A stretch of 64,000 bases of DNA, from the NCBI GenBank assembly GCA_964016885.1, contig OZ024740.1, forward strand, positions 20,770,001-20,834,000, given 5' to 3'. Both the position numbers and the translations under genes were made by a program. The notes under the pieces are model-generated. The model saw nothing but the letters and a program-made list of their open reading frames with translations. It was not told the DNA's origin and did no database searches. The stretch comes from Eledone cirrhosa. Lineage: Eukaryota. Below, piece by piece: positions 1 to 41,140 of the stretch. Position 1 is the first letter of the stretch. Each line of letters starts with the position of its first letter.

Positions 1-408
1 GGGGCACTGGGATATGTTAGTAACTGCCTCAATACAAATCTTGAGAAGCTAGGCTTCACAGGAACAGAAAGAACACAACTAGTTAGGAAATTACAAGTAC
101 AATCCATTAATGGAACAGTAAAAATATGTAAAACATTCCCAAAATGTTGCATCTAATAACTGCATATACACATGTACAGATACAAAGCATATACACATGC
201 ACACATACAACTCAAAACATCCACATCCACACATACAATAACATCCATATCTACACATGCATGCATGCAGACATACATACATATCTACCTAGTTGATGTT
301 GTGTAAATTCCAATGAGAGAATCTTGTGTCTATGTTAGAAACCGACTCTCTTTCTATTGGTAAAACTTTGTGAAATTATAAAACCAGAAGAACATACATA
401 CACATACA

Positions 409-760
409 TGATGGCTGCCCTCTCGTTATCGAGTATGGCCCTTGCACGATATACCATTATTACTAATTATTAATTAATTCTATCGGGCAATGCCTGTACG
501 TGAAGATATTTTTTAAAGTGAGGAAAGACTGTGCACTGAGTCAATCCCACTCTCTGAGCGACAGTAGCTATAACCCGAAAAGAAAAAAGATCAACATCAT
601 CGGTAACTACTGAGCCGCAGGTTTTATATCGGAGTTATCCCAGTTTCCTAAGTTACCTTCTCCTAGAAGAATGCCCTGACAAATGCTAGGGGTCCTTCAC
701 TCCCAGTGGTTTAACCGCGCGATCGGGTGTCCAACCCGACTATTTCTATGTCCCCGCGCA
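409..760 (-). mobile_element. Non-autonomous ~350-bp repeat (family A) resembling an RTE-LINE 5' UTR; copies at 2819-3170, 4984-5337 and 43127-43404 (opposite strand)
   Basis: Four homologous copies in the window. The minus strand contains ctaggagaagg(c/t)aact, a motif seen in RTE 5' UTRs. Always abuts (TACA)n/(TATG)n. Confidence 0.5.
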
Positions 761-842
761 TACATACATACGTACATACATACGTACATACGTACATACA
801 TAGATACATACATACGTACATACGTACATACGTACATACATA

Positions 843-1405
843 ACAGACCAGATATAATGTTATGGGACAGGGAAAAGAAAGCATGCACAGTAGTGGAAAT
901 TAGCTGCCCAGCAGATGCCAATATAATATTAAAGATTAGCGAAAAGGAGAATATTTATGCAGAAGTAATGAGAAATCTGCAGATACTCCACCCTGATTAC
1001 ACCTTCAGATTTATGCCTGTGATTATTGGGGTACTGGGGCATGTTAGTAACTGCCTCAATACAAATCTTGAGAAGCTAGACTTCACAGGAACAGAAAGAA
1101 AACAACTAGTTAGGAAATTACAAGTACAATCCATTAATGGAACAGTAAAAATATGTCAACAAATTTTGCATAAAATAATTGCATATACACATGTACAGAT
1201 ACAAAGCATATATACATGCACACATACAACTAAAAACATACACATCCACACATACAATAACATCCATGCCTACACATGCAGACATACATACATATCTACC
1301 TAGTTGATGTTGTGTAAATTCCAATGAGAGGGTCTTGTGTCTATGTTAGAAACAGTCTCTCTCTCTATTGGCAAACATTTGTGAAATTATAAAACCAGAA
1401 GAACA
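843..1405 (+). mobile_element. 3' fragment of an RLE-type non-LTR retrotransposon (R4/Dong-like): endonuclease C-terminus plus 3' UTR; copy at 3253-3815
   Basis: Translates NRPDIMLWDREKKACTVVEISCPAD..KENIY, a PD-(D/E)xK-type restriction-like endonuclease. Ends in ataaaaccagaagaa followed by (CATA)n. Confidence 0.85.
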
Positions 1406-1446
1406 TACATGCGTACGTACATACATACATACATACATACATACAT

Positions 1447-2803
1447 ACAACACAGGAAACTTCCACATCAACAGTGACATAGACCGCTTTTACTTGAAAC
1501 GTAAGCAGGGAGGCAGAGGCCTAACATCAGTCCAGACAACATTTGAATGTCGCATCATATCTCTCCGACAACATCTACGAACCTCGAAGCGTAGGAGCCC
1601 GTTTCTCGAGCAAGTCTATCTGCATGAAACAGATAAGATTATGAGAGTTGGGAAGGAACTCTTCGAGAGATATTCCCTGTGTCATAATCACAAACTCACA
1701 CCCAGGGAAGTCGCTCAGCAGTATCGCAGTGAATCCAAGGATGAAAAACTGCATACTTATCAGCAAAAAATCATGCATGGATATGTTGCCAGGAAGCTCC
1801 TGGGTGAGAGTAATATATATAAGGAAAGTAGTCTGTCTTGGACCAACAACCGCTATATTGGCTCCCACTTTGAAGGATACGCTTTTGCAATCCAAGAACA
1901 GGAGATTAGCACGAAATACCTGATTCACAAAAGAGATAGGGATGCAGGCAAAACAACTAGATGTGATAACAAGTGCAGACTCTGCAGAACTAACATCGAG
2001 GATATCACCAATGTCATCAGCAGCTGCCCAAAGATGTCATCGCGGTACTATCTACCTATGGGGCATGATGTAGTGGCCAAAACACTGTACAATGCAGTTC
2101 GTAAAAAAGATAGCCCCGATAATAAACACATGAAAAGCTACAACAATGTGGAAGACATCCATGTACATAATATGAAAGAGTACTGGTGGAATGTTTCAGT
2201 AAAAACCCCAATAAAATGCAGGCAAACAGACCAGATATTATGATATGGGACAGGGAGAAGAAAACATGCACAGTAGTGGAAATTAGCTGCCCAGCAGATG
2301 CCAATATAATATCAAAGATTAGTGAAAAGGAGAATATTTATGCAGAACTGATGAGAAATCTGCAGATACTCCACCCTGATTACACCTTCAGATTTATGCC
2401 TGTGATCATTGGGGCACTGGGATATGTTAGTAACTGCCTCAATACAAATCTTGAGAAGCTAGGCTTCACAGGAACAGAAAGAACACAACTAGTTAGGAAA
2501 TTACAAGTACAATCCATTAATGGAACAGTAAAAATATGTAAAACATTCCCAAAATGTTGCATCTAATAACTGCATATACACATGTACAGATACAAAGCAT
2601 ATACACATGCACACATACAACTCAAAACATACACATCCACACATACAATAACATCCATATCTACACATGCATGCATGCAGACATACATACATATCTACCT
2701 AGTTGATGTTGTGTAAATTCCAATGAGAGAATCTTGTGTCTATGTTAGAAACCGACTCTCTTTCTATTGGTAAAACTTTGTGAAATTATAAAACCAGAAG
2801 AAC
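1447..2803 (+). mobile_element. 5'-truncated, frameshifted RLE non-LTR retrotransposon (R4/Dong-like): post-RT region, CCHC zinc knuckle, RLE and 3' UTR
   Basis: R4-type post-RT motif DIDRFYLKRKQGGRGL; AIQEQEI; CRLC..EDI.(H/N)VISSC knuckle; (R/G)HDVVAK; RPDI..VEISCP in the next frame (2186-2566). Flanked by (TACA)n. Confidence 0.88.
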
Positions 2804-3856
2804 ATACATACACATACATGATGGCTGCCCTCTCGTTATCGAGTATGGCCATTGCACGATATACCATTATTACTAATTATTAATTAATTCTATCGGGCAA
2901 TGCCTGTACGTGAAGATATTTTTTAAAGTGAGGAAAGACTGTGCACTGAGCCAATCCCACTCTCTGAGCGACAGTAGCTATAACCCGAAAAGAAAAAAGA
3001 TCAACATCATCGGTAACTACTGAGCCGCAGGTTTTATATCGGAGTTATCCCAGTTTCCTAAGTTGCCTTCTCCTAGAAGAATGCCCTGACAAATGCTAGG
3101 GGTCCTTCACTCCCAGTGGTTTAACCGCGCGATCGGGTGTCCAACCCGACTATTTCTATGTCCCCGCGCATACATACATACGTACATACATACGTACATA
3201 CGTACATACATAGATACATACATACGTACATACGTACATACGTACATACATAACAGACCAGATATAATGTTATGGGACAGGGAAAAGAAAGCATGCACAG
3301 TAGTGGAAATTAGCTGCCCAGCAGATGCCAATATAATATTAAAGATTAGCGAAAAGGAGAATATTTATGCAGAAGTAATGAGAAATCTGCAGATACTCCA
3401 CCCTGATTACACCTTCAGATTTATGCCTGTGATTATTGGGGTACTGGGGCATGTTAGTAACTGCCTCAATACAAATCTTGAGAAGCTAGACTTCACAGGA
3501 ACAGAAAGAAAACAACTAGTTAGGAAATTACAAGTACAATCCATTAATGGAACAGTAAAAATATGTCAACAAATTTTGCATAAAATAATTGCATATACAC
3601 ATGTACAGATACAAAGCATATATACATGCACACATACAACTAAAAACATACACATCCACACATACAATAACATCCATGCCTACACATGCAGACATACATA
3701 CATATCTACCTAGTTGATGTTGTGTAAATTCCAATGAGAGGGTCTTGTGTCTATGTTAGAAACAGTCTCTCTCTCTATTGGCAAACATTTGTGAAATTAT
3801 AAAACCAGAAGAACATACATGCGTACGTACATACATACATACATACATACATACAT

Positions 3857-4925
3857 ACAACACAGGAAACTTCCACATCAACAGTGACATAGACCGCTTT
3901 TACTTGAAACGTAAGCAGGGAGGCAGAGGCCTAACATCAGTCCAGACAACATTTGAATGTCGCATCATATCTCTCCGACAACATCTACGAACCTCGAAGC
4001 GTAGGAGCCCGTTTCTCGAGCAAGTCTATCTGCATGAAACAGATAAGATTATGAGAGTTGGGAAGGAACTCTTCGAGAGATATTCCCTGTGTCATAATCA
4101 CAAACTCACACCCAGGGAAGTCGCTCAGCAGTATCGCAGTGAATCCAAGGATGAAAAACTGCATACTTATCAGCAAAAAATCATGCATGGATATGTTGCC
4201 AGGAAGCTCCTGGGTGAGAGTAATATATATAAGGAAAGTAGTCTGTCTTGGACCAACAACCGCTATATTGGCTCCCACTTTGAAGGATACGCTTTTGCAA
4301 TCCAAGAACAGGAGATTAACACGAAATACCTGATTCACAAAAGAGATAGGGATGCAGGCAAAACACCTAGATGTGATAACAAGTGCAGACTCTGCAGAAC
4401 TAACATCGAAGATATCACCCATGTCATCAGCAGCTGTCCAAAGATGTCATCGCGGTACTATTTACCCATGAGGCATGATGTAGTGGACAAAACACTGTAC
4501 AATGCAGTTCGTAAAAAAGATAGCCCCGATAATAAACACATGAAAAGCTACAACAATGTGGAAGACATCCATGTACATAATATGAAAGAGTACTATTGGA
4601 ATGTTCCAGTAAAAACCCCAATAAAATGCAGGCATGCAGACCAGATATTATGACATGGGACAGGGAGAAGAAAACATGCACAGTAGCGGAAATTAGCTGC
4701 CCAGCAGATGCCAATATAATATCAAAGGAAAATATTTATGCAGAACTGATGAGAAATCTGCAGATACTCTACCCTGATTACACCTTCAGATTTATGCCTG
4801 TGATTATTGGGGCACTGGGATATGTTAGTAACTGCCTCAATACAAATCTTGAGAAGCTAGGCTTCACAAGAACAGAAAGAACACAACTATTGGTAAAACT
4901 TTGTGAAATTATAAAGCCAGAAGAA
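3857..4925 (+). mobile_element. Second copy of the R4/Dong-like fragment with an internal deletion near the 3' end
   Basis: ORFs 3778-4653 and 4596-5048 show CRLC..HVISSC, RHD and RPDI. A deletion joins ~4888 directly to the 3' terminus. Confidence 0.85.
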
Positions 4926-7420: not shown

Positions 7421-7648
7421 ATAAGAAAAGGAGAATATATGAATATATACTCTGCTCTGTAAAAGCATCGAGTATATATATATATATATATTGGAATAAA
7501 TGCTCTGAAATAGCGATATATATGTGAATATAGACATAGAATATTCGAAAATATTCTGTATGTTTATAATAAACATTTTGAAGACCTAATCGCTATAGAA
7601 TAGAATACGTCACGTATTACAATTAGATTCTCGATAAAAGCAAGGGAA

Positions 7649-7691
7649 GTAATCTACGCGTTTCATTCTTGTTAGAAATCATCAGGACTAC
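7649..7691 (-). ncRNA. Minimal type I hammerhead ribozyme; also at 7959-8001, 8269-8311, 8579-8621 and 8889-8931 (all minus)
   Basis: Minus strand reads GTAGTC-CTGATGA-TTTCTAACAAGAAT-GAAA-CGCG-TA-GATTAC: stem I GTAGTC/GATTAC, CUGAUGA and GAAA cores, palindromic short stem III (ACGCGT), GUA cleavage triplet. Confidence 0.88.
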
Positions 7692-9143
7692 ATATCCAGT
7701 GCTTTTATCGAGAATGACACAGCTAGAGACTTATAGAATACTTAGCTGTGTACAGGAACTGGTTTGAAAGAGCGGTTGCCGGTCCGGCAGAAATTAGAAA
7801 TTGGAATAAATGCTCTGAAATAGCGATATATATGTGAATATAGACATAGAATATTCGAAAATATTCTGTATGTTTATAATAAACATTTTGAAGACCTAAT
7901 CGCTATAGAATAGAATACGTCACGTATTACAATTAGATTCTCGATAAAAGCAAGGGAAGTAATCTACGCGTTTCATTCTTGTTAGAAATCATCAGGACTA
8001 CATATCCAGTGCTTTTATCGAGAATGACACAGCTAGAGACTTATAGAATACTTAGCTGTGTACAGGAACTGGTTTGAAAGAGCGGTTGCCGGTCCGGCAG
8101 AAATTAGAAATTGGAATAAATGCTCTGAAATAGCGATATATATGTGAATATAGACATAGAATATTCGAAAATATTCTGTATGTTTATAATAAACATTTTG
8201 AAGACCTAATCGCTATAGAATAGAATACGTCACGTATTACAATTAGATTCTCGATAAAAGCAAGGGAAGTAATCTACGCGTTTCATTCTTGTTAGAAATC
8301 ATCAGGACTACATATCCAGTGCTTTTATCGAGAATGACACAGCTAGAGACTTATAGAATACTTAGCTGTGTACAGGAACTGGTTTGAAAGAGCGGTTGCC
8401 GGTCCGGCAGAAATTAGAAATTGGAATAAATGCTCTGAAATAGCGATATATATGTGAATATAGACATAGAATATTCGAAAATATTCTGTATGTTTATAAT
8501 AAACATTTTGAAGACCTAATCGCTATAGAATAGAATACGTCACGTATTACAATTAGATTCTCGATAAAAGCAAGGGAAGTAATCTACGCGTTTCATTCTT
8601 GTTAGAAATCATCAGGACTACATATCCAGTGCTTTTATCGAGAATGACACAGCTAGAGACTTATAGAATACTTAGCTGTGTACAGGAACTGGTTTGAAAG
8701 AGCGGTTGCCGGTCCGGCAGAAATTAGAAATTGGAATAAATGCTCTGAAATAGCGATATATATGTGAATATAGACATAGAATATTCGAAAATATTCTGTA
8801 TGTTTATAATAAACATTTTGAAGACCTAATCGCTATAGAATAGAATACGTCACGTATTACAATTAGATTCTCGATAAAAGCAAGGGAAGTAATCTACGCG
8901 TTTCATTCTTGTTAGAAATCATCAGGACTACATATCCAGTGCTTTTATCGAGAATGACACAGCTAGAGACTTATAGAATACTTAGCTGTGTACAGGAACT
9001 GGTTTGAAAGAGCGGTTGCCGGTCCGGCATCCAATTTCTAATTTCTGCCGGACCGGCAACCGCTCTTTCAAACCAGTTCCTGTACACAGCTAAGTATTCT
9101 ATAAGTCTCTAGCTGTGTCATTCTCGATAAAAGCACTGGATAT

Positions 9144-9186
9144 GTAGTCCTGATGATTTCTAACAAGAATGAAACGCGTAGATTAC
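9144..9186 (+). ncRNA. Minimal type I hammerhead ribozyme; also at 9454-9496 and 9764-9806
   Basis: gtagtc ctgatga tttctaacaagaat gaaa cgcg ta gattac, enclosed by the 16-bp inverted repeat attctcgataaaagca/tgcttttatcgagaat. Confidence 0.88.
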
Positions 9187-9926
9187 TTCCCTTGCTTTTA
9201 TCGAGAATCTAATTGTAATACGTGACGTATTCTATTCTATAGCGATTAGGTCTTCAAAATGTTTATTATAAACATACAGAATATTTTCGAATATTCTATG
9301 TCTATATTCACATATATATCGCTATTTCAGAGCATTTATTCCAATTTCTAATTTCTGCCGGACCGGCAACCGCTCTTTCAAACCAGTTCCTGTACACAGC
9401 TAAGTATTCTATAAGTCTCTAGCTGTGTCATTCTCGATAAAAGCACTGGATATGTAGTCCTGATGATTTCTAACAAGAATGAAACGCGTAGATTACTTCC
9501 CTTGCTTTTATCGAGAATCTAATTGTAATACGTGACGTATTCTATTCTATAGCGATTAGGTCTTCAAAATGTTTATTATAAACATACAGAATATTTTCGA
9601 ATATTCTATGTCTATATTCACATATATATCGCTATTTCAGAGCATTTATTCCAATTTCTAATTTCTGCCGGACCGGCAACCGCTCTTTCAAACCAGTTCC
9701 TGTACACAGCTAAGTATTCTATAAGTCTCTAGCTGTGTCATTCTCGATAAAAGCACTGGATATGTAGTCCTGATGATTTCTAACAAGAATGAAACGCGTA
9801 GATTACTTCCCTTGCTTTTATCGAGAATCTAATTGTAATACGTGACGTATTCTATTCTATAGCGATTAGGTCTTCAAAATGTTTATTATAAACATACAGA
9901 ATATTTTCGAATATTCTATGTCTATA

Positions 9927-9993
<67 letters not shown>

Positions 9994-10069
9994 ATATGGG
10001 TTATATATATATATATATATAATTGATGTGGGGTAGGCCGTTTGGGCACTCGATGTTTTTACAGAGTAT

Positions 10070-10649
10070 ATAGCGCACTGTATATCTCTCTCTAGTGTGT
10101 TACCTTTTCAACATATTATATTTTAAAGAGCTCAGGATTTCTTCTCCTTTGAGAACATTATTGACAGGAAATGGCGAGGGTCTATGGCTCCGTTAATTTA
10201 TCGTGATATTTAGCTCCTTATAACAGTCTTTCCTACCTTACTCTGTTTGGTTGAGCACACTTCTCTGATTGGTTTTGGGCTGCCCTTTCTAGCAGCTCGT
10301 CCCTCAGAAGCCACTGGTTCACTGCCCTTAAACACGATGTGACTTCTCTCTCCCACGTGTAGCTGGACGGTTACTTTTAAAATTCTCTTAGTGTTGTCTG
10401 AAATGTATAGCCTTACACACGCTGAGGAACCGAGGTTATTCCATTTCTGTGAACAACTTACTAGCGAAACAGATCTCTTTGGATTTGTACGCGTGTTATG
10501 TAGTTATAGAGGTATTTATTTACGCTTTAATTTATATTTTTAATTATCGTGTCTATAGTCTGCCTTTTTTCCATACACTGGTGGTCTTTCCCTGTTTTAT
10601 TGATAGCGCACTGTATATCTCTCTAGTGTGTTACCTTTTCAACATATTG

Positions 10650-10656
<7 letters not shown>
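10070..10656 (+). mobile_element. Non-autonomous PLE-like element with a ~55-bp terminal direct repeat (partial pLTR) and an internal HHR
   Basis: atagcgcactgtatatctc..tagtgtgttaccttttcaacatatt at 10070-10125 and 10603-10656. Contains ggttgagcac, also found in the 5' leader of the 36-41 kb PLE. Ends in (TA)n. Confidence 0.6.
10415..10496 (+). ncRNA. Type I hammerhead ribozyme with a long, imperfect stem II
   Basis: acacacg-CTGAGGA-(stem II aggttattc/gaacaactt)-GAAA-CAGATC tctttg GATTTG-TA-cgcgtgt. Confidence 0.65.
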
Positions 10657-10738
<82 letters not shown>

Positions 10739-10939
10739 TATGTACACGTACATACATATATGTATACAGACGTACAGTAGTATGTATATATATATACATA
10801 CATGCACACATATATATATGTACGTATGGATTCACCGAACATTTATTATAATGCTCGGTGTGTTTGTAAACAAACATCCCGTATTAGGCCGCAGCGTCTA
10901 GTAACCATCGTTGCTCGTTTGTTCAACACTGACAAAGGA

Positions 10940-10982
10940 ACGCTGTACTAGTTTCAAGCTTATTAGCTATCGTCAGCAACGT
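10940..10982 (-). ncRNA. Minimal type I hammerhead in a ~370-bp repeat (10740-11110; inverted copy 19820-20175)
   Basis: Minus strand: acgttg-CTGACGA-T AGCT aata AGCT T-GAAA-CTAG-TA-cagcgt, with palindromic stem III ACTAGT. Confidence 0.82.
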
Positions 10983-11483
10983 ATACCCTCCTGCCAGATT
11001 GTTGAACGTATATACTTACCTTATGCATATTAACGGCTGAGTAGCCCAATTTGCATATCGAGTGGGTTAATCGGCCGGGTGCACCGAAAACGATAAACGG
11101 AAAAAATGAAACGAAATTTATTAACGGCTGAGTAGCCCGTTTATCGTTTTCGGTGCACCCGGCCGAATATATATATATATGAAAATGGCGTGCTGCGTTG
11201 TTGCAAATGGGATACATATGAATAAAATTCGAACAGATGATAAGGCGTCCGTCATCAGTGATCTTCCAGCGGTCGTTGGTATTTCTTCGCATTAAAGATC
11301 ATATACCTCTGGCTGGTGCGAGCAATAACTAAAAAAAAAAGTTATTGGGACACGTAGAATTGGGTGAAGCGGGCGAGACATGTAAACAAACAGAGATGGT
11401 AATGCAACGGAAAGAGAGCAAGAGGAGAAACAAGTCCGTGATACCTGTGAACTTAAGTTCGATCAAATCACGGACGAAAGACA

Positions 11484-26119: not shown

Positions 26120-28085
26120 AGAGTGATAGGTGGGTAAGTTGCTAGGTGGGGGGTGGGGGGTAAAGTTGCTAGGTGGGTAAGTTGCTAGATAGGAGGTTAA
26201 GTTGATAGGTGGTTAAGTTGATAGGTGGTTAAGTTGATAGGTGGGGAAGTTGCTAGATAGGAGGTTAAGTTGATAGGTGAGTAATTTGATTGGTGGGCAA
26301 GTTGATAGGTGGATAAGTTGATAGGTGGGCAAGTTGATAGGTGGGTAAGGTGATAGGTGGGGAAGTTGCTAGATAGGAGGTTAAGTTGATAGGTGAGTAA
26401 TTTGATTGGTGGGCAAGTTGATAGGTGGATAAGTTGATAGGTGGGCAAGTTGATAGGTGGGTAAGGTGATAGGTGGGGAAGTTGCTAGATAGGAGGTTAA
26501 GTTGATAGGTGGGTAATTTGATTGGTGGGCAAGTTGATAGGTGGATAAGTTGATAGGTGGGCAAGTTGATAGGTGGGTAAGGTGATAGGTGGGGAAGTTG
26601 CTAGATAGGAGGTTAAGTTGATAGGTGGGTAATTTGATTGGTGGGCAAGTTGATAGGTGGATAAGTTGATAGGTGGGCAAGTTGATAGGTGGGTAAGGTG
26701 ATAGGTGGGGAAGTTGCTAGATAGGAGGTTAAGTTGATAGGTGGTTAAGTTGATAGGTGGTTAAGTTGATAGGTGGTTAAGTTGATAGGTGGGGAAGTTG
26801 CTAGATAGGAGGTTAAGTTGATAGGTGAGTAATTTGATTGGTGGGCAAGTTGATAGGTGGATAAGTTGATAGGTGGGCAAGTTGATAGGTGGGTAAGGTG
26901 ATAGGTGGGGAAGTTGCTAGATAGGAGGTTAAGTTGATAGGTGGTTAAGTTGATAGGTGGTTAAGTTGATAGGTGGGGAAGTTGCTAGATAGGAGGTTAA
27001 GTTGATAGGTGAGTAATTTGATTGGTGGGCAAGTTGATAGGTGGGGAAGTTGATAGGTGGGTAAGGTGATAGGTGGATAAGGTGATAGGTGGGGAAGTTG
27101 CTAGATAGGAGGTTAAGTTGATAGGTGGGTAATTTGATTGGTGGGCAAGTTGATAGGTGGATAAGTTGATAGGTGGGCAAGTTGATAGGTGGGTAAGGTG
27201 ATAGGTGGGGAAGTTGCTAGATAGGAGGTTAAGTTGATAGGTGGGCAATTTGCTAGATAGGTGGGTAAGTTGCTAGGTGGATAAGTTGCTAGAGATGTGG
27301 GTAAGTTGATAGATAGGTGGGTAAGTTGATAGGTGGGTAATTTGATTGGTGGGTAAGTTGCTATGTCGGTAAGTTGCTAGATAGTTCGGTAAGTTGATAG
27401 GTGGTAAGGAGATAGGTGGGCAAGTTGATAGGTGGGCAAGTTGATAGGTGGGTAAGTTGATAGGTGGGTAAGTTGGTAGGTGGGTAAGTTGCTAGATAGG
27501 TAGGTGGGTAGGTAAGTTTCTAGATAGGTGGGTAAGAAGCTAGGTGGGTAAGTTGCTAGATAGGTAGGTAAGTTGATAGTTGGGTAAGCTGCTAGATAGG
27601 TGGGTAAGTTGCTAGGTGGGTAAGCTGCTAGATAGGTGGGTAAGTTGCTAAATAGGTGGGTACGTTGCTAGGTGGGTAAGTTTCTAGATAAGTGGGTAAG
27701 TTGCTAGATAGGTGGGTAAGTTGATAGGTGGGCAAGTTGATAGGTGGCTAGGTAAGTTGCTAGATAGGTGGGTAAGTTGATAGGTGGGTAAACTGCTACA
27801 TAGTTGGGTAAGTTGCTAGATAGGTGGGTACGTTGCTAGGTGGGTAAGTTGCTAGATAAGTGGGTAAGTTGCTAGATAGGTGGGTAAGTTGATAGGTGGG
27901 TAAACTGATAGATAGGTGGGTAAGTTGCTAGGTGGGTAAGTTGCTAGATAGGGGGGGGGGTAAGTTGCTAGGTGGGTAAGCTGCTAGATAGGTGGGTAAG
28001 TTGCTAGGTGGGTAAGCTGCTAGATTGGGGGGGGGGGTAAGTTGCTAGATATCTGGGTAAGTTGCTAGGGGAAGGTAGGTTGCTA
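26120..28085. repeat. G-rich 16-bp minisatellite (aagttgataggtgggN) with 116-bp higher-order repeats
   Basis: Visible periodicity; the near-identical minus-strand ORFs ending 26448, 26564 and 26680 are spaced 116 bp apart. Confidence 0.92.
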
Positions 28086-35639: not shown

Positions 35640-37258
35640 TATTCGAATACTCAGATTACATTTATTGTATTCAGCCATGTAGGGCGATTATTTAAAGAAA
35701 AATTTATTTGAATATGACAAAGCCGGCCATTGATTGTTCGTATACAGGAAAATAACTGGCCAGTCTGCTCATATGCAAACCTGGCTGATCAGTGGATCTG
35801 CTAATATGCAGATCTCACTGATCAGCCTGTCTGTTTATATGCAAATCAGGCCGATTAGTCACTGCATGTTTTAGGAAATATCATATATTTTCACTAGCTC
35901 TGACAATTGGCAGGTGAACAGTGAGCTGTACTGAGGAAGGGTAATACCCAGAAACATTAGTGTCTGCAGTTATGTTTACATGCCAACATAAGAGCAAGAA
36001 TGAAGGGTTCACTCTACTGACATGGCTTTAAAAATGAGGCTTGTTTGCATAATTACAATTAATCGAATGTTATTATTAATATTAGAAAAACTCAGATTAC
36101 ATTTATTGTATTCAGCCATATAGAGCGATAGTTTGAAAAAAAATATTTTATATATATATATATATATATAGTAATAATAATAAAATTGAAGACTAAAATC
36201 CAAAGAGGGCTCGATAAGGAAAATATATATCAAATATATAAGAACCGTAGAGCAAATATTTATTAAAATAACAGATTAAAGTTTAAGCAAAGAATCGCTG
36301 CTTTCACCCTTAACGGGATCTTCTGAAACTAACAAAGTCAATCTGTAAACGCAGAACTGGATATTTGAAAAAACGTTGCAACCGGAGGAAGACAGGAAGA
36401 CGATACTTTGGTTCGTGGTAACGTTCGCTGGCAAAGAACGGGAAAAAACGAATAATACGTCATTAATGGGAGCGGTGAAAAACAATTACGCGCAAAGACA
36501 AAACCACGTTTATGGTATAAAAGAGGTCGTAGACTAATGTTCTCTTAGGTGGTGCATAGAGACGTTCTCTGGCAATGAACGGAAAAACGAAGATAATAAG
36601 TCATATGTGGTGCGTGGAGAACAATAGCACGCAAAGACAAAACCACGTAAATGGTATAGCAGAAATCGTAGACTAAAATTCTAACTAGGAGACCAAATGA
36701 ATCTCCGCTACAGAGTTAAGAACAAAGTAAATAAATACAATACAGAAGTAATAGAAACAAATAAATACATACACGCAAACAGATACGTACATACACAAGC
36801 ATACGCAAAACCTTACCATGGGTATACAAAACCACGCACATATAAATATGTTTGTGTGTGTATGCTTGTGTACAAATAAATAAATAATTATATAAACGTA
36901 TATAAGTAAATAAATACGTATATAACAAGCGCACACGCATACCTACATATAAATACACGAATGTTCGGAGACGTAAGTCAACTAAAACAAGAAGTACACA
37001 TATACACACACCCACCATACGTACGAACCTGCACACTCACGCGGACACAAAACTCCCGTATACACATAGCCAAACCCTAAATACCAGAATATGTAAAAAT
37101 TATACGCTATAACAGTCAAATATACGTACGAGAAGGTATACATACCTTCACAAAACATACGGGTAATATATACTTACCTATGCAAATAAGTAAAGGAATA
37201 AACAAAACATATACTTAGCTCCCACATCAAGACGTAAAATATCCACGTATAGATCGTG

Positions 37259-39388
37259 CTATCCGTTAGGGTATAACGTGGTGCTGTAATACAGGAAAGT
37301 TTTGTGCAATTTATGTTTACAAGCCGAAAATGCCTCGGATTTTTTGTTTAAGATGTGGTCTGTAGCGTAGAGTATTTCCAGGGCCTCAGCGGCGCAAAGG
37401 TCACATGGTCTTTTATTTCCGTTATACGATCTAGCCCTAGCTAGGATCTCTCAGTGTAACTTATATTGGGTGTGGTTGTCTTTTAGACTCCAGATATAAG
37501 CTGAAAGTGACGTCATATTCCTTCTTAGAGGGTAACGAAAAGAATGGGTATGCATGTAAAGACGTTGCTTGAAACTATTGGCGGTTAACCCTATGTAGGC
37601 CCTACGGGACGTGGGTGTTACAACCTTACATTTGTAGACAATGTTACTAGAGAGGCATTTCCCGGATAGGGGGCAATCAGCCCGATTTCTACAATTACAG
37701 TTAGTACTAACTACCGGGTTGCACGTGTTCCTACGGCTAGGTAGTTTAGCTAAATTTGAAGCTGTGATGTTATGTGCAAGGTTAGGAGTCGTAGAGTAAG
37801 AAATTTTAATAGTATTTCTATTAAAAATTTTACTATATTTATGTGTAGGGGAAAATGCTTCGTAATAAGGGAAATAAAGATCTTAGCTAATGGTGTGGCC
37901 ACCTCCATATTATATGGTGGGTTAAACCAACAAATGCGACGGGATCTATTTCTTCTAGGTCTATTTTCGTACTCTGTATATGCTACCTTATCGACAAATC
38001 CACTTCGAGCAAGAGCTTCATTGTAATAAGTGGAATGGTCGTTGAAAATGCGCTCGTTGGTGGAAAGACGGGAAAGCCTCAACGAAACGTTTCTTACCAG
38101 GTTCTTGGTTATGCTGGCAGGATGGTTGGAATGCTTACTTATGTAATTAAGCGTATCATTCGGCTTTCTATACGGGTAATACAACCCATTCAATAAATTG
38201 AGGGTAACGTCGAGGTAATTAACGACCGAGAGATTGGCCTCAACCTGTATAGAGAGGTTGAAGCCTTTAAAGAAGGCTGTGAGTTCTTTTCTGAACCTGT
38301 CGCAAGCACGAGGTCCGCACTTAGTCATGGTCAAAAGACCATCGTCACGGTACAAACCACCGCTCGCGTTGGGGAATTCGTCCTTGATAGAGAAAAGAAG
38401 GAAAAGGCCAATAAGATCAGTAACCTCCGCAGAGTCACTGGCACCCATACTCACGTCGAATGGGGTACTATTGGATTTTTTAATCCAAATAGAGTCGTCG
38501 AAATTAATCACCGACTTTCGGGCATTAAGGATGACATCAACTTCAAAATCCTTAACCACTGTGAGTGTTTTAGCGAAATTGATAGCTCTAAGGAGAAGTG
38601 GTAAAGTGATGGAGGAGTAGTAATTGTTGATGTCGAATTGGATAAAACGGCAATGTTCCTTGTTACATATGCCGTTGAACCAATAAATCACCGCGAAAGA
38701 ATTGTTCCACAGTGCGAGAGGGGCCAAACTTCTAATTTCAGGTATAATTCTATCAAGAATCGTTTTACTAAGTCTACCTAAATCGGACTTCGTAGGGTTA
38801 ATAAGCCGAATAGAGGGGTTGTTCGGAAAATTGGATTTGTGATCCTTCAGGGTAAAGTGGGGAGAGATAGGGTCCAGAGGTTCGGTCCGGTCCAGGATGT
38901 TGAGATCAGATGTGATTTTAAACCCAGCATCGTTGATTTCATTGATGACGCACCGATTAGTTTTACGGTAATCCTTAGTTACAGCATTATGTAGTAGTTG
39001 ATGGTAAGTACTGCGCTCCACTTGATATAGGTTGCCAGTTTTGTCGGAATGGACGTGCACGGCGTTAGAATCCTTAATAGAACGAATTCTATTCTTCAGG
39101 TCTTGCTGGAAGGAATTGCTCCTATTCCGAAATTTGATATTCCGAATGAGTTCCAAGACATCATTTTCAAAAGGGTAGCAATGCTGGGTTCCACGGAGGG
39201 TTATTATAAGTTTTAAATCCAAATTTATCCTGTTTGTTGTCTGCTTTTCGCGGATTATCGAAATAAAAGGCACGCCAACGCAACCTTTTAATGAACGCGT
39301 CTGTTTTCTGTATCAGGAGTTTTAGGTATGTTTTCCTGCTTGGTACGGGTATGTTCTTTGTAGAAATATTCAGATGTTGTTTCTGCAT
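37259..39388 (-). pseudogene. PLE reverse transcriptase / GIY-YIG endonuclease ORF (~710 codons) with 2 frameshifts and 1 stop
   Basis: N-terminus STKNIPVPSRKTY..FIKRLRWRAFYF; RT motifs IRLINP, FIQFDINNYYSSI, FDVSMGASDSAEV, GLYRDDGL, NYLDVTL; C-terminus CNC..CPLSGKC..IVYKC..YIG..FKQR..H..CDLC..E..LNKKSE..CKH. Frameshifts near 39170 (T run) and 37850 (C run); TGA at 37451-37453. Confidence 0.9.
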
Positions 39389-39439
39389 GATGAATATAAG
39401 TCAGTAGAGTGCTCAACCGAAGGAGCCAAATAGTAATAG

Positions 39440-40042
39440 AAGCATTTTCCCCCTACACATAAATATAGTAAAATTTTTAATAGAAATACTATTAAAATTT
39501 CTTACTCTACGACTCCTAACCTTGCACATAACATCACAGCTTCAAATTTAGCTAAACTACCTAGCCGTAGGAACACGTGCAACCCGGTAGTTAGTACTAA
39601 CTGTAATTGTAGGAATCGGGCTGATTGCCCCCTATCCGGGAAATGCCTCTCTAGTAACATTGTCTACAAATGTAAGGTTGTAACACCCACGTCCCGTAGG
39701 GCCTACATAGGGTTAACCGCCAATAGTTTCAAGCAGCGTCTTTACATGCATACCCATTCTTTTCGTTACCCTCTAAGAAGGAATATGACGTCACTTTCAG
39801 CTTATATCTGGAGTCTAAAAGACAACCACACCCAATATAAGTTACACTGGGAGATCCTAGCTAGGGCTAGATCGTATAACGGAAATAAAAGACCATGTGA
39901 CCTCTGCGCCGCTGAGGCCCTGGAAATACTCTACGCTACAGACCACATCTTAAACAAAAAATCCGAGGCAATTTCGGCTTGTAAACATAAATTGCACAAA
40001 ACTTTCCTGTATTACAGCACCACGTTATACCCTAACGGATAG
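39440..40042 (+). CDS. Intact-frame C-terminal GIY-YIG endonuclease portion in the inverted PLE duplicate (5'-truncated, not an independent gene)
   Basis: Open from KHFPPTHKYSKIFNRNTIKISYS through CNCRNRADCPLSGKC, IVYKC/YIGLT to ...TLYPNG*. Has TGG and a 5-C run where the main copy has TGA and a 4-C run. Confidence 0.75.
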   Translation, partial: KHFPPTHKYSKIFNRNTIKISYSTTPNLAHNITASNLAKLPSRRNTCNPVVSTNCNCRNRADCPLSGKCLSSNIVYKCKVVTPTSRRAYIGLTANSFKQRLYMHTHSFRYPLRRNMTSLSAYIWSLKDNHTQYKLHWEILARARSYNGNKRPCDLCAAEALEILYATDHILNKKSEAISACKHKLHKTFLYYSTTLYPNG

Positions 40043-40970
40043 CACGATCTATACGTGGATATTTTACGTCTTGATGTGGGAGCTAAGTATATGTTTTGTT
40101 TATTCCTTTACTTATTTGCATAGGTAAGTATATATTACCCGTATGTTTTGTGAAGGTATGTATACCTTCTCGTACGTATATTTGACTGTTATAGCGTATA
40201 ATTTTTACATATTCTGGTATTTAGGGTTTGGCTATGTGTATACAGGAGTTTTGTGTCCGCGTGAGTGTGCAGGTTCGTACGTATGGTGGGTGTGTGTATA
40301 TGTGTACTTCTTGTTTTAGTTGACTTACGTCTCCGAACATTCGTGTATTTATATGTAGGTATGCGTGTGCGCTTGTTATATACGTATTTATTTACTTATA
40401 TACGTTTATATAATTATTTATTTATTTGTACACAAGCATACACACACAAACATATTTATATGTGCGTGGTTTTGTATACCAATGGTAAGGTTTTGCGTAT
40501 GCTTGTGTATGTACGTATCTGTTTGCGTGTATGTATTTATTTGTTTCTATTACTTCTGTATTGTATTTATTTACTTTGTTCTTAACTCTGTAGCGGAGAT
40601 TCATTTGGTCTCCTAGTTAGAATTTTAGTCTACGATTTCTGCTATACCATTTACGTGGTTTTGTCTTTGCGTGCTATTGTTCTCCACGCTCCACATATGA
40701 CTTATTATCTTCGTTTTTCCGTTCATTGCCAGAGAACGTCTCTATGCACCACCTAAGAGAACATTAGTCTACGACCTCTTTTATACCATAAACGTGGTTT
40801 TGTCTTTGCGTGTAATTGTTTTTCACCGCTCCCATTAATGACGTATTATTCGTTTTTTCCCGTTCTTTGCCAGCGAACGTTACCACGAACCAAAGTATCG
40901 TCTTCCTGTCTTCCTCCGGTTGCAACGTTTTTTCAAATATCCAGTTCTGCGTTTACAGATTGACTTTGTT

Positions 40971-41021
40971 AGTTTCAGAAGATCCCGTTAAGGGTGAAAG
41001 CAGCGATTCTTTGCTTAAACT
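40971..41021 (+). ncRNA. Non-canonical hammerhead-like motif in the PLE 3' UTR; also at 36280-36330(-), 12394-12444(+) and ~42586-42636(-)
   Basis: AGTTT-CAGAAGA-T CCC gttaa GGG T-GAAA-GCA gcgattctt TGC-TT-AAACT, extended by acagatt/aatctgt. All three stems pair, but core position 4 is A instead of U. Confidence 0.6.
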
Positions 41022-41037
41022 TTAATCTGTTATTTTA

Positions 41038-41140
<103 letters not shown>

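What the first reader, a model, noticed from the sequence alone, without database searches (positions are those of the whole stretch)
7491..9931. Head-to-head retrozyme-like array: eight identical 310-bp units, each with a minimal hammerhead ribozyme
Seen: a non-coding 310-bp unit, 5 copies pointing left and ~3 pointing right, apparently identical, each with GTAGTC-CUGAUGA-stem II-GAAA-CGCG-UA-GATTAC, inserted in (TA)n. Known: metazoan non-LTR retrozymes are tandem units of a few hundred bp with minimal type I HHRs that self-cleave (via dimers, through palindromic stem III) into circular RNAs, and they are proposed to be mobilised by PLEs. Inference: a very recent insertion of a cephalopod retrozyme family by rolling-circle reverse transcription of a 310-nt circRNA (monomer 9181-9490, cut after GUA at 9180/9490/9800). 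Read-through transcription could also form a dsRNA hairpin with a stem of ~0.9 kb.
Basis: partly seen in the sequence, partly recalled or inferred. Interest (0 to 1): 0.9.

Follow-up and report, generated by a model that had tools for sequence, protein, structure and literature searches.

The report
Two-armed Penelope-type hammerhead retrozyme insertion
This is one of roughly 1,200 or more young, near-identical insertions of a 310-base non-coding repeat with a predicted self-cutting RNA motif, almost all sitting in TA microsatellites as two back-to-back arrays that end at two fixed sites 35 bases apart, a footprint that likely records a Penelope-type retrotransposon enzyme copying one RNA (likely often a circle) from both ends of a DNA break at once.

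Summary
Confirmed: arms 7490-9029 (minus, 4.97 units) and 9030-9930 (plus, 2.91 units) match one 310-nt cycle exactly; eight hammerheads (canonical, not 'minimal'); (TA)n flanks. The head-to-head layout is the family rule, not an accident: 4,177 exact hammerhead copies, about 1,200 or more loci. The outer 3' ends fall at two sites 35 nt apart (A, B). 49 of 49 end pairs on one chromosome stretch are one A plus one B, the Penelope-like element (PLE) 'tail'. Both arms share the locus haplotype (50 of 52), inner junctions are not fold-backs, and arms reach 45 units. Best reading: a non-autonomous retrozyme inserted by two-primer reverse transcription of one RNA by a PLE enzyme. A monomer circle is the likelier usual template (33 haplotypes fixed array-wide in 80 loci), but four loci point to multimer templates. 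Partner PLE not found; cleavage, circles and expression untested; 'cephalopod' untested. Hits in other organisms' runs look like trace carry-over in the three tested. The class is known and the PLE link was proposed in print; this footprint was not in the papers searched. The scan noted the same architecture earlier on other DNA.

The parts
7490..9029 (-). Left arm, 4.97 tandem 310-nt units; outer 3' end at unit position 165 (site B), inner 5' end at unit position 176
9030..9930 (+). Right arm, 2.91 units; inner 5' end at unit position 160, outer 3' end at unit position 130 (site A)
7490..7524 (-). 35-nt 'tail' (unit 131-165) present at the left end only: the stretch between the two inferred reverse-transcription start sites
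   Evidence: tail concept from PMC11167929 and 10.1101/2021.04.23.441226
9029..9046 (.). Inner head-to-head junction, blunt (no overlap, no filler); 9030-9045 would be the 16-nt loop of an 885-bp fold-back
   Evidence: sequence
9181..9490 (+). Predicted cut-to-cut monomer (310 nt); unit numbering in this report starts at 9181
9144..9186 (+). Type I hammerhead (stem I 6 bp, stem II 4 bp plus U.U, stem III one A-U pair with CGCG palindromic loop, GUA cut after 9180)
9454..9496 (+). Type I hammerhead, cut after 9490
9764..9806 (+). Type I hammerhead, cut after 9800
8889..8931 (-). Type I hammerhead
8579..8621 (-). Type I hammerhead
8269..8311 (-). Type I hammerhead
7959..8001 (-). Type I hammerhead
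7649..7691 (-). Type I hammerhead
9120..9208 (+). Long extension of stem I (9120-9135 pairs with 9193-9208); 10 of 15 counted pairs change on both sides across families
9239..9335 (+). Conserved hairpin domain around site A (UUCG-capped hairpin 9278-9297; sequence most conserved with the 65-70% identical sister families); inferred enzyme-binding and start-site signal
7473..7489 (.). Left (TA)n target
9931..9989 (.). Right (TA)n target

Best explanation
This is one copy of a young, non-coding hammerhead repeat family whose insertions sit head-to-head in (TA)n with one arm ending at site A and the other at site B, and it was likely inserted by a Penelope-like element (PLE) reverse transcriptase-endonuclease acting in trans, which would cut both strands of the (TA)n target and extend both 3' ends on the same RNA molecule, one from A and one from B. 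Steps: (1) shown: dispersed loci, fixed 3' ends, one A plus one B per insertion, random 5' ends, same haplotype in both arms, TA targets. (2) Inferred: arrays are transcribed; hammerheads cut as dimers in multimeric RNA; monomers are ligated to 310-nt circles. (3) Inferred: a PLE protein, probably a dimer, binds the conserved hairpin domain, and each subunit starts at one of the two internal sites. (4) Inferred: both polymerases run 3' to 5' along the RNA, through the ligated cut site again and again on a circle (usual case, about 55-60%) or along an uncut multimer (best fit for a minority of loci), then stall at random. (5) Inferred: the two cDNA ends are joined by microhomology or end-joining, giving the head-to-head array with a 35-nt tail at one end.
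For: 4,177 exact hammerhead copies, control 0. About 1,200 ends of each class at (TA)n (forward counts 632 and 613; reverse counts are double-listed). 49 of 49 head-to-head end pairs within 20 kb on C1 0-169.7 Mb are A+B, none AA or BB, p 1.8e-15. Of 93 insertions read in full, 80 are two-armed, all minus-then-plus: 76 A+B, 2 A plus a near-B end (155, 157), 2 cut by the fetch or a gap, 0 AA/BB; 73 of 80 have TA on both sides. Both arms carry the same haplotype in 50 of 52 loci against 7.1 expected, maximum 16 in 20,000 permutations. Inner 5' ends are unrelated between arms (9 of 81 within 20 nt, 10.7 expected) and 1 of 88 lies near the cut site; 46 of 81 junctions overlap by 1-16 nt. 33 haplotypes are fixed array-wide among 80 loci, and arms reach 45 units. 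One junction holds 272 nt of a PHD-finger/RT non-LTR element's upstream region in the orientation expected from a polymerase jump. Purified PLE protein cuts and extends both strands, starts at two internal sites that define the tail, and is modelled as a dimer (PMC11167929, parts 1-2 read). Autonomous PLEs in this genome show the same hammerhead, two-end, (TA)n anatomy. Sister families keep A and B at the same spacing despite 30% divergence.
Against: No autonomous PLE sharing sequence with the unit was found. 13 of 93 insertions look one-armed. Against a monomer circle as the only template: unit-specific variants shared in register by both arms in 4 of 63 loci, plus one ambiguous (L059, L073, L178, L191; L077); in L178 both arms switch haplotype after the same two units. 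In vitro the PLE hammerhead is not needed for insertion (PMC11167929), and 28 of 64 sister-family cores are broken although that family spread. The hammerhead combines two weakening features (one-pair stem III, U.U in stem II) and is not the minimum-energy local fold as a monomer. Many fetched loci were chosen from end lists, so end-class counts are enriched; searches are the less biased tests. All fully read loci come from one chromosome.
Confidence: 0.72

Rival explanations
1. Same PLE two-primer insertion, but the usual template is an uncut linear multimer transcribed from existing arrays; the hammerhead and any circles are incidental.
For: In-register shared variants in 4 of 63 loci; L178 mosaic over an 18-unit arm; offset sharing in L060 and the second L033/L034 insertion; hammerhead dispensable in vitro; weak ribozyme features; sister family spread with broken cores.
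Against: Only 10 shared against 60 private variants in 66 kb covered by both arms; 33 array-wide haplotypes in 80 loci need frequent single-unit bottlenecks followed by long arrays; random 5' truncation (median arm 1,042 bp) should shrink arrays each round, yet arms reach 45 units; sister-family arms never exceed 553 bp (0 of 112 over 640 bp). Private variants may be post-insertion or assembly errors, which weakens the first point.
Confidence: 0.3
2. Short PLE-type insertions were expanded afterwards at the DNA level by unequal crossover or slippage, as for satellites (scenario discussed in 10.64898/2026.07.22.740005).
For: Repeated variants at 7-unit spacing in one 19-unit arm suggest some local duplication; would also fix a haplotype along an arm.
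Against: Arms under one unit cannot seed a full cycle, yet both arms are independently long and share the haplotype; 23 of 63 loci have no internal variant at all; the older sister families in the same targets never expanded.
Confidence: 0.1
3. The inversion comes from fold-back self-priming (proposed for PLEs in PMC3846280, passages), not from two primers.
For: The window's own junction is near-palindromic (16-nt loop).
Against: Across 81 junctions the two 5' ends are uniformly distributed relative to each other (KS p 0.99), so the window's near-palindrome is chance-level; fold-back does not explain A at one end and B at the other.
Confidence: 0.04
4. Assembly or fold-back read artefact.
For: Perfect identity and palindromic layout; this junction was not checked in raw long reads.
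Against: About 1,200 loci with fixed biological ends, locus-specific haplotypes and different junctions; the cycle is present in independent runs.
Confidence: 0.02
5. A viroid-like circle spreading between species.
For: 20 runs under 17 organism labels hold 0.76-1.00 of the words; three show a closed 340-nt contig.
Against: Those three hold it at depth 10-34 and also hold other host repeats at low depth (up to about 2,000) against 1e6-2e7 in run X2, the pattern of trace carry-over; raw reads of organism J gave 0 in a 1% sample. Only 5 of 24 listed runs were laid.
Confidence: 0.03

Closest known systems
Metazoan non-LTR retrozymes (Cervera and de la Pena 2020, PMC7229834, parts 2-4 of 6 read plus term search; Li, Clavereau and Pollet 2026, 10.64898/2026.07.22.740005, part 1, Discussion and term search)
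   Same: 150-450-bp non-coding tandem unit, GC under 50% (34%), canonical type I hammerhead in every unit, self-paired predicted circle, thousands of copies, PLEs in the same genome. Stem III resembles axolotl HHR_Amex1 and the U.U in stem II resembles HHR_Amex2.
   Different: Neither main text describes head-to-head arrays, fixed ends or a tail (0 hits for 'inverted', 'tail', 'head-to-head' in PMC7229834; 0 for 'tail' and 'head-to-head' in the preprint). There PLE mobilisation rests on co-occurrence and phylogeny; here it rests on the insertion footprint. Expression and circles were shown there and are untested here. Supplements were not read.
EN+ Penelope-like elements: Poseidon PAc (PMC11167929), Naiad/Neptune (10.1101/2021.04.23.441226), Adineta Penelope (PMC3846280)
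   Same: Inverted 5'-truncated copy giving a head-to-head unit, 30-40-bp tail at one end, (TA)n targets, hammerhead upstream of two internal start sites.
   Different: No ORF; whole-unit tandems up to 45 copies rather than partial tandems; the one-A-one-B rule and the same-template result are counted here (49 of 49; 50 of 52), whereas the papers say the tail is 'usually' or 'optionally' at one end and leave the inversion unexplained or ascribe it to self-priming.
L1 twin priming (recalled, from no call)
   Same: Two target 3' ends prime on one RNA and the cDNAs join by microhomology.
   Different: In L1 the second primer anneals by chance inside the RNA and inverts the 5' part; here both starts are fixed, 35 nt apart, and both arms carry the 3' signal.

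Membership tests
Metazoan non-LTR retrozyme | Tandem unit of a few hundred bp, non-coding, no LTR | tested here: met
   310-bp unit, 34% GC; no long open frame inside arrays of 20 loci other than TA-repeat read-through
Metazoan non-LTR retrozyme | Type I hammerhead with intact core in each unit | tested here: met
   8 of 8 in window; among 32 fixed variants the only core changes are at the free position 7; stem I 6 of 6 and stem II 3 of 4 pairs change on both sides in 12 related sequences (relatedness and a structure drawn from these sequences inflate this)
Metazoan non-LTR retrozyme | Many dispersed genomic copies | tested here: met
   4,177 exact hammerheads; about 1,200 ends per class
Metazoan non-LTR retrozyme | Self-cleavage (as dimer) | not testable with these tools
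   Only a computed 6-bp intermolecular stem III, -9.5 kcal/mol
Metazoan non-LTR retrozyme | Expressed as circular RNA | not testable with these tools
   No run on record as RNA was available
PLE-mobilised non-autonomous element | Inverted 5'-truncated copy, head-to-head | tested here: met
   80 of 80 two-armed insertions are minus-then-plus
PLE-mobilised non-autonomous element | 30-40-bp tail at one end (two start sites) | tested here: met
   Modal ends 130/132 and 165/167; 49 of 49 pairs A+B
PLE-mobilised non-autonomous element | AT-rich or (TA)n target | tested here: met
   73 of 80 with TA on both sides (loci partly chosen by TA-containing patterns); 9 of 9 complete two-armed loci found by the hammerhead alone
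PLE-mobilised non-autonomous element | Sequence shared with the pLTR of an autonomous partner | tested here: inconclusive
   No match in the PLE copies sampled; the genome holds many more families than were read
Autonomous PLE | RT plus GIY-YIG ORF | tested here: not met
   No such frame in the unit or arrays
PLE minimal hammerhead (min-HHR) | Helix II 7-8 bp, helix I 4-5 bp, no helix III | tested here: not met
   Helix I 6 bp, helix II 4 bp, palindromic helix III; definitions from PMC4209133

The most novel reading that the evidence does not exclude
A PLE reverse transcriptase-endonuclease dimer obligatorily primes both ends of a cut (TA)n on one 310-nt ribozyme-made RNA circle, one subunit at each of two start sites, and both roll around it for up to 45 turns; this would be genomic proof of rolling-circle retrotransposition of an animal retrozyme and a general explanation of the inverted-plus-tail structure of Penelope elements.
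Probability: 0.45. Interest if true: 0.8.

Novelty: new variant of a known kind. Interest (0 to 1): 0.56.

Why it matters
Two open questions meet here: which enzyme moves animal retrozymes and whether a circle is the template (proposed in PMC7229834, unproven), and how PLEs form their inverted, tailed insertions (called undefined in 10.1101/2021.04.23.441226). A very young family with over a thousand insertions and many marker haplotypes gives countable answers: one A plus one B end per event, one template for both arms, no fold-back. It names a 310-nt RNA, two start sites and a (TA)n target for a direct in vitro test. It also seeds the genome with kilobase perfect palindromes that could make double-stranded RNA or be unstable.

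Tried and rejected
DNA search of the genome with the whole unit returned nothing (common words are skipped), so patterns were used. Rfam at gathering score: 0 in the window, 0 around the captured insert's source. Run search: no RNA holder listed, no evidence either way. Partner search, all negative: PLE-1 (about 750 aa; 30 + 12 loci), PLE-2 (12 loci), PLE pieces in fetched loci, 70 sister-motif loci, 24 loci of further families with blastn and a profile of alignment A1; a decayed PLE piece next to a sister end in L221 led nowhere. A motif-plus-RT-codon screen could not be run, so the 5,489 sister-motif sites were not screened genome-wide. Testing A+B pairing in PLE-2 found no two-ended locus among those held; a fifth family gave 2 of 2 A+B. 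Pfam missed PLE-1; the atlas gave HTH_animal/GIY-YIG clusters and no taxon. An energy evaluation of the monomer hammerhead failed on an impossible 2-nt loop, and the identity tally crashed. In one search a fixed 2-nt deletion was mis-scored as non-fixed (corrected). L194 gave no arm above the length cut and is not among the 93. A>G excess among fixed variants (10 against 4 U>C; non-fixed 8 against 20; Fisher p 0.019) is post hoc and fits wobble tolerance or editing equally; not used as evidence.

Full report
Observation. The array is as described. The left arm (7490-9029, minus strand, 4.97 units) and the right arm (9030-9930, plus strand, 2.91 units) match one 310-nt cycle without a mismatch, and eight hammerhead motifs lie at the stated places. 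(TA)n flanks both ends. The circular fold has z -4.6 against 100 shuffles. Rfam has no hit at gathering score and a weak one to Hammerhead_HH9 (19.2 bits, E 0.074). By the definitions in PMC4209133 (passages) the ribozyme is canonical, not minimal. It joins a one-pair stem III with a palindromic loop and a U.U at the base of stem II, features of two axolotl ribozymes that cut poorly alone and well as dimers (PMC7229834).

Family. The 43-nt hammerhead occurs 4,177 times exactly in the 3.0-Gb genome, control 0. In the first 100 listed places, loci with both orientations run minus-then-plus. Reading the first 11 other regions showed that the outer 3' ends are fixed: site A at unit position 130 or 132 and site B at 165 or 167, numbering from 9181 (an end at 132 is scored as 139 because it merges with the TA run). 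All 9 complete two-armed insertions in that set, the window included, have one A and one B. Patterns for the two ends give 632 and 613 forward matches (reverse matches are double-listed), so about 1,200 loci at least.

The A+B rule. On C1 up to 169.7 Mb there are 77 A and 75 B ends. 49 head-to-head pairs lie within 20 kb and all 49 are A+B (27 A-left, 22 B-left; p 1.8e-15). 54 ends were unpaired; 40 were fetched specifically. Most proved two-armed with a variant partner end. In all, 93 insertions were read: 80 two-armed (76 A+B, 2 A plus an end at 155 or 157, 2 cut off, none AA or BB) and 13 one-armed, one of them cut by a gap and one with an 11-nt B stub. These counts are enriched by how loci were chosen and come from one chromosome. 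A 30-40-bp tail at one end of an inverted insertion in (TA)n is the PLE signature (10.1101/2021.04.23.441226, passages; PMC3846280, passages). PMC11167929 (parts 1-2 of 4) showed that the tail lies between two internal start sites, that the protein cuts and extends both strands, that it is modelled as a dimer, and that the hammerhead is not needed in vitro.

One template, two primers. In each arm the strand running inward from the flank is the cDNA strand, as expected if both target 3' ends were extended. Both arms carry the same haplotype in 50 of 52 loci with arms of 600 bp or more; permutation gives 7.1, maximum 16. The two exceptions are mosaics in which the arms share both haplotypes. The inner ends are unrelated to each other (9 of 81 within 20 nt, 10.7 expected), which rejects fold-back priming, and they avoid the ribozyme cut site (1 of 88), which rejects single cut monomers read once. 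Junctions show 1-5 nt overlap in 42 of 81, longer overlap in 4, blunt ends in 10, short filler in 24 and one 272-nt insert. That insert is 98% identical to a multi-copy sequence on C25, upstream of PHD-finger and RT frames (the RT hit is below Pfam's cut-off), and it lies in the orientation expected if the right-arm polymerase jumped to that RNA.

Circle or multimer. For a circle: 33 haplotypes are fixed along whole arrays among 80 loci, arms reach 45 units while the median is 1,042 bp, 23 of 63 loci have no internal variant, and only 10 of 70 non-fixed variants in the stretch covered by both arms are shared in register. Against a circle as the only template: those shared variants mark 4 loci (L059, L073, L178, L191; L077 is ambiguous), and in L178 both arms change haplotype after the same two units. 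This fits an uncut multimer, a joint template switch, or later conversion between arms. I put the circle at 55-60% as the usual template.

Relatives in the genome. Sister families, 65-70% identical (5,489 motif matches), keep A and B at the same spacing, often in the same head-to-head layout. An alignment of 3 main and 9 sister sequences gives 92.3% paired cells against 80.9 shuffled and 21 of 37 pairs changed on both sides, including all 6 of stem I; relatedness and a structure drawn from these sequences inflate this. The hairpin before site A keeps its stem while the loop changes from UUCG to GCAA-like. Sister arms are short (median 214 bp, maximum 553, 0 of 112 over 640 bp; blastn segments may fragment) and 28 of 64 cores are broken. 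So the hammerhead is not required to spread, and long arrays are special to the young family.

Partner. The genome holds many PLE families with intact frames. PLE-2 has a GIY-YIG domain, a hammerhead in its 3' repeat and two 3' ends about 45 nt apart at (TA)n, the same anatomy. None of the copies read shares sequence with the unit. The label 'Neptune-like' for PLE-1 rests on its cysteine motif and the passage; no tree was built. The partner is unidentified.

Other runs. Twenty runs under 17 organism labels hold the unit. Three show it as a closed 340-nt contig at depth 10-34, but they also hold other host repeats at low depth, while run X2 holds those at millions. That is trace carry-over, not transfer, for the three tested. 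The taxon was not tested; a repeat at 12560-12700 resembles an octopus SINE from recall only.

Novelty. Retrozymes and PLE inversions with tails are known, and PLE mobilisation of retrozymes has been proposed (PMC7229834; 10.64898/2026.07.22.740005). Term searches of those two main texts found no tail or head-to-head description, and library searches (listings and abstracts) found no paper on two-primer PLE insertion or on cephalopod retrozymes; subscription papers and supplements were not seen. Earlier scan notes describe the same architecture in other genomes and other families of this genome; none matched this sequence. They agree with my reading, which was fixed before I looked, and are not independent evidence. 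Verdict: new variant of a known kind, interest 0.56.

Noticed in passing
window 36170-41051: A PLE with RT-EN coding pieces (minus 39412-37289, inverted piece plus 39440-40012) in head-to-head layout; the right arm ends in (AT)n at 41051 and the left arm runs about 84 bp further: an in-window example of the same two-end footprint. Its 3' region recurs at 11480-12560.
   Followed up: partly
window 10020-10655: The right flank of the array resembles, by eye, the hammerhead-bearing 3' repeat of the PLE in L259; motif starts near 10425.
   Followed up: partly
window 10810-10990 and about 19920-20100: A further hammerhead-like family (stem II with U.U, palindromic stem III) that also forms inverted pairs elsewhere (L046, L051, L061).
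   Followed up: no
window 13135-13225 and 11030-11170: Short inverted (palindromic) elements in (TA)n, probably two-armed insertions of other non-autonomous PLE derivatives.
   Followed up: no
window minus strand near 56870-56918: Hammerhead-like motif with a long stem II; a similar motif follows a PLE frame in L257.
   Followed up: no
L065 7000-7100, L075 5480-5630, L122 1700-1950: Another family whose hammerhead has almost the same stem II as the 310-nt unit but a long stem III; 2 of 2 two-ended copies are A+B. Possible donor of the young family's ribozyme.
   Followed up: partly
L035 2599-2870: 272-nt piece of a PHD-finger/RT non-LTR retroelement clustered at C25 19-24 Mb, captured at an inner junction.
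   Followed up: yes
main-family loci L031-L081, L166-L205: Fixed variants are rich in A>G on the ribozyme strand (10 against 4 U>C) while non-fixed ones lean the other way (8 against 20); A276G recurs on several backgrounds. Wobble tolerance, A-to-I editing or recombination between templates could each explain it.
   Followed up: partly
sister-family loci L112-L141, L209-L248: About 44% of sister hammerhead cores are broken and no sister arm exceeds 1.7 units, against up to 45 units in the young family: a natural contrast for the role of the ribozyme in array length, confounded by age.
   Followed up: partly
window 162-3860: Simple-repeat landmarks recur at a spacing of 2,410 bp (162/2572, 759/3169, 1181/3591, 1403/3813), suggesting a tandem duplication.
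   Followed up: no
window 49621-56435 and 26124-28032: A 6.8-kb CA/CT-rich simple-repeat tract and a 1.9-kb 16-bp minisatellite with extreme strand skew.
   Followed up: no
L056 2940-7252: The same two-armed insertion appears twice 2.75 kb apart next to an assembly gap, probably a local duplication or assembly overlap; it is counted twice.
   Followed up: no
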